Source of the DNA: Isurus oxyrinchus
Taxonomy: Eukaryota
DNA: 64,000 bases
Assembly: GCA_026770705.1 (NCBI GenBank)
Contig: JANJGN010000021.1
Coordinates: 90,706,001 to 90,770,000, forward strand
Reading direction: 5' to 3'
Made by a program: the position numbers. This document shows, piece by piece, positions 1 to 64,000 of the stretch (position 1 is its first letter; every line of letters begins with the position of its first letter).

Positions 1-3000
1 ACACCCGCAACCTTTCCCTATTCTGCCTGTAACCTCTATGTGTTGAGCTATCATTTCTGCCACTCCTTCAGGCAAGATTCCGTTTTATATATACCTCTTA
101 ACACTGCCAAATACAACTTTTTAACTTGTGCTGCTTCTATCTTTCAGAGTCACTCAGTAATTCTCCATCTCACATTTCCTGCATTGCATTTGCCTTCAAA
201 TTCTCAACCCCCTGCCAATTTTGTTTCAATCACCTAATACAAACTCCACCTCCCCGCCCGCTCCCACCCCACCAACAGCACATCTCGCTGTAAGGATATT
301 CATGCAATCATGTTCTGGTGTCAAACATTTGGTTTTTGCAGGTCCCACTTTTCACAGAACTGGTCTCAATATCTCAGAAATGTGATGCCCTCCCGCTTTC
401 AGCAGTTTTCCAGCTCCATGTTTAATCGCTCAATCCCAATATTTCTATATGCGCTTGCATGTAGTACTGAGAGCAATTGTTGGCTTACTGCTTTGGTTGC
501 CCTGCTTTTTAATCTCCTTTCTAGTTCCCAAAAGGCTCTTCTCAGGACCTCATCCCTTTTCCTAACTACATCATTAATAACAACATGGTGAACGGCGTCT
601 TGCTGATTTTCTTTCCTCAGAAGGATGCCCTGCAATGTCTCTGTAAGATCTTATATCCTGGCACAGGGGAGGCAACATCCTATACTGGAGTCACCTCCAA
701 GGCCACAAAAACGCCGTTATGTTTCCATAAATAACGAATCACCTATGGCTAATGCTCTCCCTCTCTTTTTTCTCCCCTCCTGAAGAGCAGAGCTGCCTGA
801 CCTGCCACAAACCTGGCTTTCACTGCATTCTTCCGACGTAACATGCCTTATCCAACATGGCAAACCGATTGCTGAGCAGGAAACCAGGGGACCCCTGCAC
901 GACCTGCCTAATTTACTTCGACTGACTGGCGTTCACCCATTCACTTTCTCCATCCAGGCTCCTAAGATGCGATATGACTACCTCATTGAACATGCTATAC
1001 ATGTAGCTCTCAGCCTGGCAAATGAGCCGCAGTTGACTACAGTCGCTGTTGGAGTCCTGAAACCCACAGCTCAATATTGAACATTTGGCAACACCTCCTG
1101 CACATATGGTCACCTAGGGCGCCAGTAGCGCCCACGAATTCCCACAAATAACAAGACATGCAATACACATGACCAACCTAACCTGCTATGGCTTCAATTT
1201 AGTATCCTTGTATTAATTTAATTTTACTTTGGTTTAATTGTGCAACTTTATTTTACCTGGTCTTGACTTAACTTTATTTTCCTATTGCCTGTGTTCCTTA
1301 CTTAAATGTAAGTAGCCCCTTCTTTTTAAAAAAAAACATTTTTCTAATTCTCATCTACTTAACGACACTCTCCTACAGCAGTTATTCACCAACCAATGAA
1401 CGTATGTCTCTCCTGTAATGTTTGGTGCTGACTGCTTGGCTCGGTGTGTTCCTGTCACACTATACACTAGGTGTTACTGACTACCTTTCCCAGGGTCCTC
1501 CTCATGCACGCTGCGCTAGGTGCTGCTGATTGCTTGACTAGGAGTCCCCCTATCACACGCAACTCTTGATGCAGCTGACTGCCTATTCCAGGGTCCACTG
1601 CTCGCACTCTCCACTAGGTGCAATTTACTGCCTATGCCAGGGTTCTCATCTCGCACTCTCTGCTAGGTGCTGCTGAATGCCTGTCTCAGTGTCCTCCTCT
1701 AGCACACTCCTGTAGGTGCTGCAACGTGCGAACAATTCAATCCTCTCTTCAAATAGAGTATTAATTGTTGTTTTCCCCTTATAATGGTATTCTTGTATCA
1801 CGTTCTTTTGTGTGCAAGCTGCAAAGCTTCAACTTGTCCCTTTTGCTCAAAAATATTTTACATATGGTTTCCATTTTAATCTCTCTTGCTGAATGTAATC
1901 GGTTTCCTTTCTTCTTGTGCTTTCTGTTGCTCATTTAGCATTTAATTTACAATTATAACTGCAACTGTTTACTCCAGGTTTCACGCTGGTCATCATTGCG
2001 TTAAATGGATCTAGAGTTGTGCATTATAGTTACACAAGTCCCACGTGCATTGTGTCGGCACTGCACTATTTCCAAGGTTAGGAAACAAACAAATCCGCTT
2101 GACATTGAATACTGTTCGAAGCAAAATCCAAACCAAAATATTCAGCTAATTCCCCACAAAAAATGCATAGTGGCAGTTGTTATGCAGTGGGAAATGTACA
2201 GTTGGCAAGTGGTTTCTATGGGTTACTCAGAGACTTAAAGTTGCTCTTTGTCCTACTGTGGTACACGAACACACATGATGTTATAGGTATTGTTGGTGCA
2301 AATTTGCATGCCTACATAACAGACCTACGCATATTTCAGTGAAGAGCTTGATAAAAAGAAGAATTGGTCCTTCATGAAATATGATTTGCAGCTTCTATCT
2401 CACGCTAATCTGTTTGTGTTTCATGTGCATAAACGTTTATGGAGTGCATCTAATTTTAATTTCACTTTGATCTAACAATCAGATTTTTTTTCTGTAGAAC
2501 TTGAAGAACTTAGGCAAAAGAACAGTACGTACAAATGTCAAGACAGCGCACTGTGACCATCCATACCAGCGCACCATGACAATCTGTACCAGCACATGGT
2601 GATGATGTGTAATACTATAATCTCACCATCTGTACCAGCACACAGTGTCTAGCTGTGCCAGCAAAACGTGACTATCTGTACCAGCACACCGTGTGTATAT
2701 GTACCAGCACACTGTGTCTATTTTTACCAGCGTTTTACTTGATTATTTAAGCTTAAATTTAACACTGAGAAGTACTGAAACAGTGGCATGCTGCTTTGAG
2801 TTTAAATATGCTGTTCGCAATTTTTAGCATCTAACAAGAATGTTTCTAAAATTCACATCAACTTAAAAATGAAAGTAATAATATGGGTATCCTGTAAAAA
2901 AAAAAGGCGAATCAAATCAAAAGAAGCTTGGATTTATATGGTATGTGTACTGAACTCATGAATTCTGAAATTATTTTACTGAGGGTGATGTATTGTTCAA

Positions 3001-6000
3001 ATGCAATCATTTTGATAAAGTAATAAATATATTCTTTGAATGGCAAGGTACTAGGAACAGCTCTGAGGCAATAATGGTATAGTGTTTGTTTTCATTATGC
3101 TGGTTCACAGGTAAGTTTTGGGCCGGCCCCTTGGGAGAATATTCGAAACATGCCTTGGGATCTTTCACATACACTTGCAAGAGCACACGTGGCCTCAGAT
3201 TAACGCTCTATCAGAAAGATAACGTTTCCAACAGTATATAATACCCTTGGTATGGCATTGGGCCATCGATCTGCACTAAAGGAGTACGATCTAAATGTTA
3301 ATGGCAGTTAATCGATTCAATCGGGTTAATATTAAACAACAACAGCAACAACAACAAATAACCCTCATTATAATAGTTGCTAACTTCATTGAAATATTGC
3401 GAAAGCACTCAGTTACTTTCTCATTTGCTGATCGATTATGTTCATGGGATATGAAACACGGGTTGAAATTCGTGCAAGCATGTTGGCGAGTGCACCAGCA
3501 TCGACTGCTAATGCCAAGGAGATAAGAGTGGCCTGGAGATCTAAAATTGTGTGTTGTCAACAAATTAACTTTTCGCAGGAATGGGTTCTGTCCTAATTCT
3601 TGAGCCGAATAAGGACAGAGTCACTGATTTTGGTGCTACCTGATGCAGAGACAAGAGTTGGCAACATTTTCTAAACATTTGCCTAACCTGAAATTAGTCC
3701 AGCCATTTTAACAGTGTCGACTACAGCAGTAATCCCTATAGATTATATTCTTCTGTAATGGGGACTGTAGTCATCAGCTGCGACCAACCTTCCAGGCTCA
3801 CCTAAGGATTCAAGGAGCAGATGAGCAGCCTGCAGTACATATGCCAGATTGAAGATCTTGGGCTCGTCCACAATTTAACAACACTTGTTGGATATTCATC
3901 TCGAGGCTGTAAGAGAAAGGGTGGAAACCTTCTCCTCAACAAAACCCAAGAAATGTCCCTTCTGCCTTACCAAGCTATCATGGATGCAGTTTGGAGAGGA
4001 GATTATCAACCTCCTGACCAGCCATTTTTTTTCTAAATGCAATGCCTAAAAACACCCTTAGCCCGGGTGTGCCCCTCCTATCGTCCTCCTATTTGGGCCC
4101 TCCATTTGCAAATTTGGTATTTTGATGTACATCAGCTAATGAGCTGACAAACCACATAGGGGTGTGTGGCTGAAGAATGAGCAGTTAGTTTCGGTTTCAT
4201 GGTGTTATTTTCTCAACAGAGAATGCGGTCTGCTGGCCAAAGCTCTGCGATCATCATAAATGTTGTGCTAGACTTTCTAGGAAATCCAACATCGTTTCTC
4301 CATCTGCTTGTAGGGGACTTTGGCACATAACAATAAGGAGAGGTCTGTGGCCGTTGGCATTCAATCAATGATGCTGGCAAAGGACGAGACATTTGGACTA
4401 ACTGCAACTCAGGGGTTTTAGTTTGCAGTTAGTGAGAATGATTCGATGAGCAAGCGAATGAGCAAGCATTATGCTTGTGTGCCAACCGCAGCAGTTCCGG
4501 ATTTATGCCTCAGCTATGGTTTAGATGAGGAGATATGAAGCACCTAACTACAAAACATTGTGTTCTCTCCTGCAGGACTCAGAACTTAAGTTGTTCAAGC
4601 TGCTGCAGCAATCGCAAACCTGCAGTCCACGAAGGAGCAAGTGAAAAATCAGTGATTCACAGAGAGTGCAAGCATCGCATTATTTCCCTGTAAAATCCAC
4701 GAGTGCATTAGCTTTTACATCAGTTGGAATGTATTTTGCGAGTCGGTTCAATGTCAGAAGCTGTTCAGTACATCGCAGACTGGCCAGGGCAGCTGAGAGA
4801 AATTTTGTCAATCGAAGCAATTGGCAGATGTTGGGTTGTGGAAGGCCAAGTTCATGCTGTAATCTAGCTGTTTGCAGGTCTCTGGAGTCGACAACATTTA
4901 AGCTGCTTGAGTTGCAGTGAGATGTAAAGGAATCTAGTAGAATTGCCAGCATTTGCAGCCATGTACAGTCGATAGCCAAGAACAACCAGACTGCGAATGC
5001 TGCCCTGCCTCGGACGCGTGCACACACGTCTTCCTGCATCTTGAGAGTAGCGACCCCCATGAAGAATAGAATCTGGCAGAGCACCCATTAGGCGCAGAAC
5101 CACATCGCCATGTATTTCATCACTTTGTCAATTAGCTCAAAGCAGGTGTGATAAGGCGAGAAGGAGACGAGTTGTATTGATAGGCCACAAGGTCCATGGC
5201 CTTCTCACATCATCAGGCGGGTATGGGTCACCGTCGCAATGGATTATGAAAGTCTTCCTGCCGCTTGGAAGGTCTTCTGTCAGGGCTGTCCCTTTTTTAA
5301 AAGTAGCTAATCAGCCCCACAAGCAATTGCCCCATGCTACATCACCAAAATGAAAGAGGAGACAAATGCACTGGTTCTGTTTACGATCATCTTAAGAGGA
5401 CCCTCTAGGATTCAGGCAGCTCGAAGGTGATCGGTAATTTCATTCAAGTTCCCAGGCAATCAGCAGGCTTCCTCCACTTTATCTGGAGTGCAAGTTTCGT
5501 ATGTCGTTTGAGCACACATAAGTAGATTAAGGGGAGCACCTGAGGCAATGGGTGCTCAAGCCTATTATCACAATGCACTTGTTAAATCCTGAACGAATAG
5601 TCTGAATAAACCCATTCCATAGAAACTTTCATTAGTCGTCTATCTACATTGTGTTTACTTGCCAGGTGTCACCTGCATCCTTGTTCTCTCAATGTGCTGC
5701 GAACGTTGCGGTAGACTGCCCCCACAGCTTAGCTACTGCAGCTGGAGAGCCTAGATGCCAAGCAATGGACCGCTACATAAAAGGCGTGACAGCTGTTCGG
5801 AACTATGTTAAGTCTTTAATGTGCTCGCATTGAAAGGGCAAAGTAGGTACTTGACCTTGCGGTGTATAATATGGTTTACAGCCTCCATTCTACATCTCTC
5901 AATACCCCTCATCTCTGCTTCAACAGATCTCTCATCTTGAGCACCTACTCAACAGATTCCTCCACCTTCTCTCTCTTGGATAAGAAGCAGCGACCAATAA

Positions 6001-63500: not shown

Positions 63501-64000
63501 ATTATTAAAAATGCAACTTAAGAAGTGACTGTTTTTGACTGTAGGGGAATGTTAATCAACCATCACCTTCCAGTGGGTGGACATTCCCACATAGCTAAGC
63601 AAGGATAAAGACGGCAATTTAGCAAAGTTATGAAAATAATTTAAGTCACTGCACCATGCATTAAAGATGTGCCAGACTGTATGCCAAATTAAATAAGAAT
63701 AATATTAAATAATAGGTCAATACATGGTGGCATTTCAGGCCAAATTAAGGCTACAGAACTTGGTCATCAAGTAAGAGTAATAGCATAAAATTTATAGTTC
63801 GATGTTATTTTCTTCTTTACTCATTCAGACTCAATGATACGTGAAACTAAGATCGGTAATCATTTCATGTTACTTTTATTCCGTAAGCATAGCATGAATC
63901 GTAGGAAGGAAAATCGTATGGGGTGCGACGTCAGTGAATTTACAAAGCCTCCAATGCCCCAAATCCATGAATTAGTGGCAACATGTGCAGATGCCCTGAA

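What the first reader, a model, noticed from the sequence alone, without database searches (positions are those of the whole stretch)
2498..63855. Hidden gene segment made of at least 18 symmetric phase-1 microexons encoding a coiled-coil-like polypeptide
Seen: 18 segments of 18, 21, 27 or 36 nt, all on the + strand, all bounded by a pyrimidine-rich tract plus AG and a GT/GC donor, all multiples of 3 and open in the same phase. They join into 507 nt / 169 aa without a stop, under 1% of the 61-kb span. The peptide is E/K/R/D/L-rich with a single Pro and no aromatic residues. Known: short phase-1 exons encoding helical repeats form the cytoplasmic tails of butyrophilins (a few 21/27-nt exons) and avian BG genes (many 21-nt exons). 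Inference: this is an expanded BTN/BG-like tail or an unannotated rod protein that ORF-based and ab initio annotation would miss.
Basis: partly seen in the sequence, partly recalled or inferred. Interest (0 to 1): 0.92.

Follow-up and report, generated by a model that had tools for sequence, protein, structure and literature searches.

The report
Microexon array encoding a helical rod
A 61-kb stretch of a shark-like genome holds at least 18 tiny, frame-preserving exons, built by repeated copying of a two-exon unit, that together encode a highly charged helical rod whose parent gene could not be named.

Summary
All are phase 1-1 and open. With lengths 18/21/27/36 nt, 12 charged, aromatic-free candidates lie in this strand and frame, against 1-2 in the other five strand/frame combinations and a mean of 0.74 (largest 3) in 100 dinucleotide shuffles.

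New here: the exons alternate between two sequence classes (0 of 5000 label permutations reach the observed similarity). The array therefore grew by ancient duplication of a two-exon cassette of 27 + 27/36 nt. Introns share nothing. Same-class exons are most alike at codon position 2 and least at position 3.

The 173 codons are 47% E/K/D/R and 23% L/I/V/M, with one Pro and no F/W/Y. Hydrophobic periodicity peaks at 3.55 residues (modest support: 28 of 1000 shuffles reach it).

The BTN/BG reading is not supported: no exon in my set is 21 nt, and no Ig or B30.2 exon lies in the window. It is not excluded either.

Gene identity is unresolved. A LINE fragment points to a cartilaginous fish.

The parts
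2498..2524 (+). Microexon A, 27 nt, phase 1-1, even class (starts AACTTG)
   Evidence: acceptor 6.3, donor 3.8 (GT). Inner codons read LEELRQKN. 59-63% nt identity to exons E and Q.
10216..10236 (+).
   Evidence: strongest sites in the array (acceptor 13.0, donor 9.6). Inner codons read KSAQHC. No class similarity (0.27 to odd, 0.17 to even).
10358..10384 (+). Microexon B, 27 nt, odd class, GC donor
   Evidence: acceptor 8.6, donor 3.2 (GC). Reads KELNASKE. Mean identity to the odd class 0.40.
11547..11582 (+). Microexon C, 36 nt, even class
   Evidence: acceptor 9.7, donor 8.0. Reads LDSLKRALRNA. Hydrophobic residues at 1, 4, 8, 11.
23938..23964 (+). Microexon D, 27 nt, odd class, GC donor (CAG|GCAAGT)
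   Evidence: acceptor 7.7, donor 6.5. Reads DDLKIKQA.
24099..24125 (+). Microexon E, 27 nt, even class, short form; only 134 nt downstream of D
   Evidence: acceptor 6.0, donor 10.3. Reads LDKHVQSD.
30285..30311 (+). Microexon F, 27 nt, odd class
   Evidence: acceptor 8.9, donor 5.5. Reads DKIREVQL. BLOSUM 21 to exon L and 16 to exon R.
31367..31402 (+). Microexon G, 36 nt, even class
   Evidence: acceptor 8.5, donor 7.6. Reads RQKIEAIHRNI.
33059..33085 (+). Microexon H, 27 nt, odd class
   Evidence: acceptor 8.5, donor 6.9. Reads EIMRRQDS.
37328..37345 (+). Microexon I, 18 nt, holds the only Pro
   Evidence: acceptor 11.9, donor 6.9. Reads TSVDP.
37978..38013 (+). Microexon J, 36 nt, even class
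   Evidence: acceptor 6.0, donor 12.3. Reads LEKLRTRLQEA. BLOSUM 25 to exon O and 19 to exon C.
45446..45481 (+). Microexon K, 36 nt, even class
   Evidence: acceptor 6.1, donor 8.8. Reads ARKMKKALQDL.
47064..47090 (+). Microexon L, 27 nt, odd class
   Evidence: acceptor 4.7, donor 6.9. Reads DKLREKES.
47243..47269 (+). Microexon M, 27 nt, even position, short form; 152 nt downstream of L
   Evidence: acceptor 4.1, donor 8.4. Reads VLDGCSNE. It is the least similar member of its class.
54031..54057 (+). Microexon N, 27 nt, odd class
   Evidence: acceptor 8.1, donor 5.6. Reads KKLIEKTL.
57366..57401 (+). Microexon O, 36 nt, even class
   Evidence: acceptor 9.1, donor 8.8. Reads VERLSGKLQEC.
58712..58738 (+). 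Microexon P, 27 nt, odd class
   Evidence: acceptor 7.1, donor 10.8. Reads NLLEQKTR.
60223..60249 (+).
   Evidence: acceptor 3.6 (27-nt form) or 6.6 (18-nt form), donor 10.3. Reads LAGHKKDD. 59-63% nt identity to exons A and E.
63829..63855 (+). Microexon R, 27 nt, odd class; 145 nt from the window end
   Evidence: acceptor 10.9, donor 3.5. Reads SMIRETKI.

Best explanation
The window lies wholly inside one large + strand protein-coding gene of a cartilaginous-fish-like genome.

Shown:
- It contains at least 18 phase 1-1 microexons of 18, 27 or 36 nt, separated by introns of 0.13-12.4 kb.
- The exons alternate between two sequence classes. The 'odd' class is 27 nt with a DK[I/L]RE-like content. 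The 'even' class is 27 or 36 nt and starts with a Glu junction codon followed by L-[D/E].
- Long and short even exons mostly alternate, so four exons add up to 36-42 codons, with a mean of 39.

Inferred:
- The array grew by repeated tandem duplication of a two-exon cassette. The duplication is old, because the introns no longer align while the exons kept their protein-level character.
- The product is a highly charged, amphipathic alpha-helical rod. It is most likely a segmented coiled coil, with three-heptad (21-residue) and stutter-containing (18-residue) units, and short acidic Gly/Pro/Ser-containing breaks encoded by the short even exons.
- It serves as a spacer, stalk or oligomerisation domain of a protein whose other domains lie outside the window.
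- Because every exon is symmetric, skipping any subset keeps the reading frame, so rod length could be tuned by cassette splicing.
- The purine-rich exons (mean 0.66 against 0.505 for the window) and near-consensus splice sites are what allow such small exons to be recognised between long introns.
For: Excess over chance:
- 12 candidates against 1-2 in the other five strand/frame combinations, and mean 0.74 (largest 3) in 100 shuffles.
- 28 of 51 acceptor/donor pairs are multiples of three on the + strand, against 9 of 36 on the - strand.
- Splice-site percentiles are 85-100.

Two alternating exon classes (17 of 18 exons used, the 18-nt exon I left out):
- Nt identity 0.398 within class against 0.293 between classes.
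- BLOSUM sum 1.92 within against -7.00 between.
- 0 of 5000 label permutations reach either value.
- A three-class test on 11 of the 12 27-nt exons (A left out): 0.0006 of 5000 permutations reach the BLOSUM value, 0.0208 the nt value.

Signs of coding constraint:
- Same-class exons are 0.398 identical, while flanking intron at fixed offsets is 0.287 upstream and 0.288 downstream.
- Identity by codon position is 0.359 / 0.438 / 0.318.
- There is no intron-level self-similarity between the exon neighbourhoods.

Protein character:
- 173 codons: E28, L23, K23, D16, R15, one P, no F/W/Y. 14 of 17 junction codons are E or D.
- Hydrophobic periodicity peaks at 3.55 residues (39/11). At that single period 2 of 2000 shuffles reach it.
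- For the maximum over periods 3.0-4.2, 28 of 1000 shuffles reach it.
- In 4 of the 5 36-nt exons hydrophobic residues (L, I, V, M or A) or Cys sit at positions 4, 8 and 11; exon G has I at 4, 7 and 11 and H at 8 (translations).

Context:
- Exon purine content is 0.57-0.74 against 0.505 for the window.
- No longer exon with a convincing frame on either strand, and no Pfam domain in the ORFs.
- A CR1-like reverse-transcriptase fragment has its best named hits in sharks, rays and a chimaera.

Precedent for cassette logic: tropoelastin, where all borders are phase 1:1 and a replicated region arose from a replicated pair of exons (10.1101/2024.12.03.626628, passages read).
Against: - There is no expression or cross-species evidence of any kind; everything rests on one 64-kb sequence.
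- The splice matrices were written from recollection.
- Helical periodicity is only modestly supported. 28 of 1000 full shuffles and 59 of 1000 within-exon shuffles reach the observed maximum.
- Shuffling exon order reaches it in 347 of 1000 trials, so long-range register across exons is not shown.
- Power at exactly 3.50 and at 39 residues is not significant (904 and 452 of 2000 shuffles).
- The alternation is broken once: exons I, J and K are all placed in the even series (J and K by the class test, I by position only), with no odd exon found between them.
- No RBFOX-type or PTB-type intronic motif is enriched near the exons.
- The parent gene is unnamed, so 'rod', 'stalk' or 'spacer' is inference from composition.
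Confidence: 0.72

Rival explanations
1. The array is the expanded cytoplasmic tail of a butyrophilin/BG-like immunoglobulin-superfamily receptor. IgV/IgC/TM exons would lie upstream of the window and perhaps a B30.2 exon downstream.
For: The logic is the same as BG and BTN tails: many tiny same-phase exons encoding a charged helical tail (PMC4046983). Butyrophilins with a variable number of heptads are reported in cartilaginous fishes (PMC12841164, passages read). The window is chondrichthyan-like. Junction codons are mostly Glu/Asp.
Against: - 0 of 18 exons are 21 or 24 nt (1 of 19 with 10216-10236), while BG tails use 21, sometimes 24 nt.
- The repeat unit is two exons of 18-21 codons, not one heptad per exon.
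- Periodicity peaks at 3.55, not 3.50.
- No Ig, PRY/SPRY or other Pfam family in the 41 + strand ORFs of 85 aa or more.
- From recollection, not from any call: BG introns are far shorter than the 0.13-12.4 kb seen here.
Confidence: 0.1
2. The same exons are real, but the product is not a coiled coil. It would be a single stable alpha-helix or a disordered, highly charged spacer, such as a luminal or extracellular stalk, or a linker in a cytoskeletal protein.
For: 47% E/K/D/R. Breaks rich in G, P, S, N and D occur about every 39 residues. There is no significant power at exactly 3.50 residues, and exon-order shuffles reach the observed periodicity in 347 of 1000 trials.
Against: L+I+V+M make up 23% of residues (28% with Ala), and they sit at 1-4-8-11 spacings in the 36-nt exons. 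That is more hydrophobic and more regular than expected for ER/K-type single helices; that expectation is recollection, not tested here.
Confidence: 0.18
3. The segments are chance pseudo-exons or relics of a dead gene and are not spliced into any mRNA.
For: No expression data could be consulted. Some sites are weak: donors of A, B and R score 3.2-3.8, and acceptors of L, M and Q27 score 3.6-4.7.
Against: - The excess over shuffles and over the other five strand/frame combinations.
- Class alternation, 0 of 5000 permutations.
- A codon-position pattern of identity typical of coding constraint.
- No stop in 173 codons or 17 junction codons.
Confidence: 0.05

Closest known systems
Chicken BG genes and butyrophilin cytoplasmic heptad exons
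   Same: Many tiny, same-phase, in-frame exons encode a charged alpha-helical tail, and exon number varies through duplication (PMC4046983, passages read).
   Different: BG exons are 21 (sometimes 24) nt, one heptad each, 13-36 per gene. Here exons are 27, 36 or 18 nt, the unit is a pair of exons, and introns are 0.13-12.4 kb. No Ig, TM or B30.2 exon was seen in the window.
Tropoelastin gene, replicated region
   Same: All borders are phase 1:1. Coding density is low (about 6% in amniotes). The region arose by replication of a pair of exons of two alternating kinds, and it allows cassette-like splicing without frame change (10.1101/2024.12.03.626628, passages read).
   Different: Tropoelastin domains are hydrophobic Gly/Val/Pro/Ala-rich or Lys cross-linking domains. 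Here G is 3, P is 1 and V is 5 of 173 residues, and 47% are E/K/D/R. The resemblance is one of architecture, not of family.
Fast skeletal troponin T 5' alternative exons
   Same: A run of small alternatively spliced exons of one phase class encodes an acidic segment (PMC2447309, abstract seen).
   Different: Only five exons (4-8), and not a two-class repeat. Their sizes are recalled, not checked.
Schistosome micro-exon genes (MEGs) and aphid bicycle genes
   Same: These genes are built largely of symmetric microexons between long introns. MEGs: PMC10526429, abstract seen. Bicycle genes: almost all internal exons start at codon position 2, the same split as here (10.1101/2021.09.24.461719, passages read).
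   Different: Both are secreted effector-like proteins of flatworms or insects. Bicycle proteins carry CYC motifs; here there are 0 Tyr and 2 Cys in 173 residues. The host genome here is chondrichthyan-like.

Membership tests
BG / butyrophilin cytoplasmic tail | Tail exons of 21 (sometimes 24) nt, one heptad each (PMC4046983) | tested here: not met
   0 of 18 exons are 21 or 24 nt; 1 of 19 if 10216-10236 is counted.
BG / butyrophilin cytoplasmic tail | IgV (and IgC) and transmembrane exons upstream in the same gene | not testable with these tools
   Only 2.5 kb lies upstream of the first exon. No Ig family in the 41 + strand ORFs of 85 aa or more.
BG / butyrophilin cytoplasmic tail | B30.2 (PRY-SPRY) exon after the heptads (butyrophilins only) | not testable with these tools
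   The array reaches to 145 nt from the window end. No SPRY match inside the window.
BG / butyrophilin cytoplasmic tail | Continuous heptad (3.5-residue) hydrophobic pattern | tested here: inconclusive
   The peak is at 3.55 residues (28 of 1000 shuffles reach it). Power at 3.50 is not significant (904 of 2000).
Tropoelastin | All exon borders phase 1:1, with alternating pairs of exon types | tested here: met
   All 18 exons are phase 1-1. Two alternating classes, 0 of 5000 permutations.
Tropoelastin | Hydrophobic G/V/P/A-rich domains alternating with Lys cross-linking domains | tested here: not met
   G 3, P 1, V 5 and A 9 of 173 residues; E+D are 44 of 173.
Aphid bicycle genes | CYC (Cys-Tyr-Cys) motifs and a signal peptide | tested here: not met
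   0 Tyr and 2 Cys in 173 residues. The signal peptide is not testable. The host is not an insect.
Schistosome MEGs | Flatworm secreted proteins, with microexons between conventional first and last exons | tested here: not met
   The LINE fragment's best named hits are chondrichthyan. The gene ends are not in the window.
Collagen-type exons (multiples of 9 nt) | Gly-X-Y triplets | tested here: not met
   Exon lengths are multiples of 9, but only 3 Gly occur in 173 residues and no frame gives Gly every third residue.

The most novel reading that the evidence does not exclude
This would be an undescribed vertebrate gene architecture: a very large chondrichthyan gene, extending beyond both ends of the window, whose rod is assembled from dozens of copies of a two-microexon cassette. 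It would be built like the replicated region of tropoelastin but would encode a segmented coiled coil with a super-repeat of about 39 residues. Any subset of cassettes could be skipped in frame, giving a splice-tunable molecular ruler. A 39-residue period is close to the actin-binding period of tropomyosin (recalled, not tested), so a tropomyosin-like filament-binding role is conceivable. A BG-related tail, 'zipper protein', is reported to regulate actin-myosin interaction (PMC4046983).
Probability: 0.15. Interest if true: 0.75.

Novelty: new variant of a known kind. Interest (0 to 1): 0.5.

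Why it matters
Genes with many similar-sized exons all in one phase are rare; that statement is made in 10.1101/2021.09.24.461719. Arrays of microexons are also easily lost by gene predictors.

This array shows, from sequence alone, a clear duplication grammar: a two-exon cassette with long and short forms alternating. It also shows signs of coding constraint.

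If transcripts confirm it, it would be a vertebrate example of a coiled-coil-like rod built and possibly length-tuned by cassette microexons. That would extend a principle known from BG tails and tropoelastin to a new exon size class and a new protein type. If the gene turns out to be an annotated, conserved coiled-coil gene, the finding is ordinary gene structure.

Tried and rejected
- **Exon-by-exon protein search.** One search was a parameter slip. No other protein tool takes fewer than 20-30 residues, so no single exon could be searched.
- **Joined spliced model.** It was not searched, folded or printed.
- **RNA genes.** Rfam at gathering threshold gave 0 matches. ARAGORN gave 0 tRNA genes.
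- **Window against itself.** blastn found 14 small matches, none linking exon neighbourhoods, so there is no recent segmental duplication.
- **Longer exons (61-699 nt).** 25 candidates on + and 19 on -, none with a convincing frame or composition.
- **Extra microexons at relaxed thresholds.** 29 candidates on + against 10 on -. Nothing persuasive lies in the gaps. 29529-29543 (15 nt) remains possible.
- **Intronic motifs.** GCATG, TGCATG, TCTCT, CTCTC and TGC within 300 nt of the exons are not enriched.
- **Periodicity.** Not significant at 3.50, 7, 11, 19.5 or 39 residues. Exon-order shuffles reach the observed maximum in 347 of 1000 trials.
- **Pfam.** On 47 ORFs there was nothing above cut-off. 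One Hid1 match at 15.4 bits is below the 22.5-bit cut-off.
- **Human origin.** Not taken for human: CpG observed/expected is 0.51, there is no Alu-core match with up to 3 mismatches, and the LINE hits are chondrichthyan.
- **Literature.** Searches for a described gene with 27/36-nt coiled-coil microexon arrays found none. This covers open-access full text only, and supplements were closed. BG Figures S2 and S10, with exon lists, could not be seen.

Full report
**1. What the window is**

The window is 64,000 bases with no N. GC is about 0.40 and CpG observed/expected is 0.51.

A 191-aa stop-to-stop ORF at 7880-8455 (+) is the C-terminal part of a CR1-like LINE reverse transcriptase. Of 374 candidates, 251 proteins match it at E <= 0.001. 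The best named hits by identity are:

| Organism | Identity |
|---|---|
| Chiloscyllium punctatum | 70% |
| Callorhinchus milii | 64% |
| Mobula hypostoma | 63% |
| Hypanus sabinus | 61% |
| bichir, birds, turtles | 37-51% |

There is also no Alu-core match. I therefore take the window for a cartilaginous-fish-like genome, not for human.

**2. The observation**

I scored all AG and GT/GC sites with splice-site weight matrices. The frequencies are recollected, so scores are approximate. I then paired acceptors and donors 9-60 nt apart.

On the + strand, 28 of 51 pairs are multiples of three, against 9 of 36 on the - strand.

| Measure | + strand, phase-1 frame | Other five strand/frame combinations | 100 dinucleotide shuffles |
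|---|---|---|---|
| Open candidates | 36 | 15-28 | mean 14.6, largest 21 |
| At least 50% E/K/R/D/Q and no W/F/Y/P | 12 | 1-2 | mean 0.74, largest 3 |

My own set of 18 exons (A-R, see parts) sums to 522 nt, or 0.85% of the 61,358-base span. Introns run from 134 to 12,355 nt, with a median of 1,656. Acceptors rank at percentile 85-99.9 and donors at percentile 91-100 of all such dinucleotides on the strand.

Two donors are GC, and one of them is a perfect CAG|GCAAGT. Every exon begins with two bases that finish a codon and ends with one base. None of the 17 junction codons is a stop: 11 are Glu, 3 are Asp, and the rest are Ser, Asn and Thr.

**3.

The exons fall into two classes that alternate along the DNA.
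- Odd exons (B, D, F, H, L, N, P, R) are all 27 nt and read like DK[I/L]RE.
- Even exons (A, E, M, Q of 27 nt; C, G, J, K, O of 36 nt) mostly begin AA[C/G/T]T[T/G]GA. That is a Glu junction codon followed by Leu or Val and an acidic residue.

Comparing the first 27 nt of 17 exons (the 18-nt exon I left out) gives:

| Measure | Within class | Between classes | Label permutations reaching the difference |
|---|---|---|---|
| nt identity | 0.398 | 0.293 | 0 of 5000 |
| BLOSUM62 sum | 1.92 | -7.00 | 0 of 5000 |

Long (36) and short (27 or 18) even exons mostly alternate. Groups of four exons therefore give 117, 108, 126 and 117 nt, or 36-42 codons with a mean of 39.

The short even exons carry the helix-unfriendly residues and end acidic. 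These are the exons containing KH..SD, GH..DD, DGCSNE and SVDP.

The pattern is broken once. Exons I, J and K are all placed in the even series: J and K fall in the even class in the test, while I was left out of that test and is placed only by its position after H. No odd exon was found between them, even at relaxed thresholds.

Introns between an odd exon and the following even exon tend to be short (134, 152, 1055, 1162, 1484 nt; also 3308 and 4242).

**4. Age and constraint**

A blastn of the window against itself finds only 14 small matches. None links the neighbourhoods of different exons. The duplications are therefore old.

Same-class exons are 0.398 identical. Intron stretches at fixed offsets upstream and downstream are 0.287 and 0.288, which is background. 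Within exons, identity is highest at codon position 2 (0.438), then position 1 (0.359), and lowest at position 3 (0.318). This is the pattern expected if the stated frame is translated and under purifying selection. It is indirect evidence, because no orthologue could be compared.

**5. What the product looks like**

I counted residues exon by exon, without building a joined sequence. The 173 codons give E 28, L 23, K 23, D 16, R 15, Q 10, S 10, A 9, I 9, one P and no F, W or Y.

In 4 of the 5 36-nt exons hydrophobic residues (or Cys) sit at positions 4, 8 and 11, and in three of them also at position 1; exon G has Ile at 4, 7 and 11 and His at 8. This is an a-d-a-d spacing.

A Fourier scan of the hydrophobicity values, laid out by exon order, peaks at 3.55 residues, which equals 39/11. 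Support for this peak is mixed:
- 2 of 2000 shuffles reach it at that single period.
- 28 of 1000 shuffles reach the maximum over periods 3.0-4.2.
- 59 of 1000 do so when residues are shuffled only within exons.
- 347 of 1000 do so when exon order is shuffled.

Helical amphipathicity is thus supported modestly, and a coherent long-range register is not shown.

A cassette of 21 residues is three heptads. One of 18 residues is two heptads plus a four-residue stutter, a known coiled-coil irregularity (PMC9369452, passages read).

My reading is a segmented coiled-coil-like rod with a short acidic break about every 39 residues. A single stable helix or a charged disordered spacer is the main alternative.

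**6. Surroundings**

No longer exon with a convincing frame was found on either strand. All 41 + strand ORFs of at least 85 aa, and 6 - strand ORFs, have no Pfam match above cut-off. Rfam and tRNA scans are empty.

The first exon lies 2.5 kb from the window start and the last lies 145 nt from its end. The array very likely continues on both sides, and the gene's defining domains are out of view.

**7. Comparison with known systems**

The BG/BTN idea shares the principle of tiny same-phase exons encoding a charged helical tail. It fails the one defining feature that could be tested. BG tails use exons of 21, sometimes 24 nt, with 13-36 per gene (PMC4046983, passages read). Here none of my 18 exons has that size.

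The closest architectural match is the replicated region of tropoelastin. There all borders are phase 1:1, coding density is low, a replicated pair of exons of two kinds alternates, and cassette splicing occurs (10.1101/2024.12.03.626628, passages read). The composition rules out elastin itself.

Three other families share the symmetric-microexon principle but differ in host, size or motifs:
- Troponin T 5' exons (PMC2447309, abstract).
- Schistosome MEGs (PMC10526429, abstract).
- Aphid bicycle genes (10.1101/2021.09.24.461719, passages read).

**8. What stayed unchecked**

The gene could not be named. The only protein search that holds shark proteins needs at least 40 residues, and no exon has more than 11 complete codons. 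The search with the joined spliced model was left out.

Whether the gene is annotated, conserved or expressed is therefore open.

Five literature searches found no description of such an array. These cover open full text only, and supplements were closed.

**9. Verdict**

This is a real and statistically solid microexon array with a clear two-exon duplication grammar, and it most likely encodes a charged helical rod. The BTN/BG label is unsupported. Novelty cannot be judged without the joined search or expression data. I rate it a new variant of a known kind, with interest 0.5.

Noticed in passing
window 7880-8455 (+) and 8992-9294 (+): CR1-like LINE reverse-transcriptase C-terminal fragments. 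The first has its best named protein hits in sharks, rays and a chimaera at 61-70% identity. The second was recognised by eye only and has no Pfam hit.
   Followed up: partly
window 8416-8598 and 11006-11188: A 183-bp inverted pair at 95% identity. The first copy overlaps the 3' end of the LINE fragment, so these are probably two LINE tails in opposite orientation. The pair brackets candidate exons 10216-10236 and 10358-10384, which both start GTAAA and lie 121 nt apart. They may be alternative exons.
   Followed up: partly
window 57430-57476 and 60476-60544: (TG)n microsatellites lie 29 nt downstream of exon O and 227 nt downstream of exon Q. Whether GU-rich repeats act on splicing here was not examined.
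   Followed up: no
window 37414-37469: A 56-nt poly-C run at 83% purity lies 69 nt downstream of exon I.
   Followed up: no
window 1477-1719 and 2544-2731: Tandem repeats of 49 bp (5 copies) and 23 bp (2.2 and 4.5 copies). The 23-bp arrays begin 20 nt after the donor of exon A.
   Followed up: no
   Followed up: partly
window 25907-26038 (-): A 132-nt open segment on the minus strand has very strong splice-like sites (acceptor 14.5, donor 10.1). Its nature is unknown; it may belong to a repeat.
   Followed up: no
window 35537-36409 (+): Overlapping Pro/Thr/Ser-rich low-complexity ORFs of 122-167 aa have no Pfam match.
   Followed up: partly
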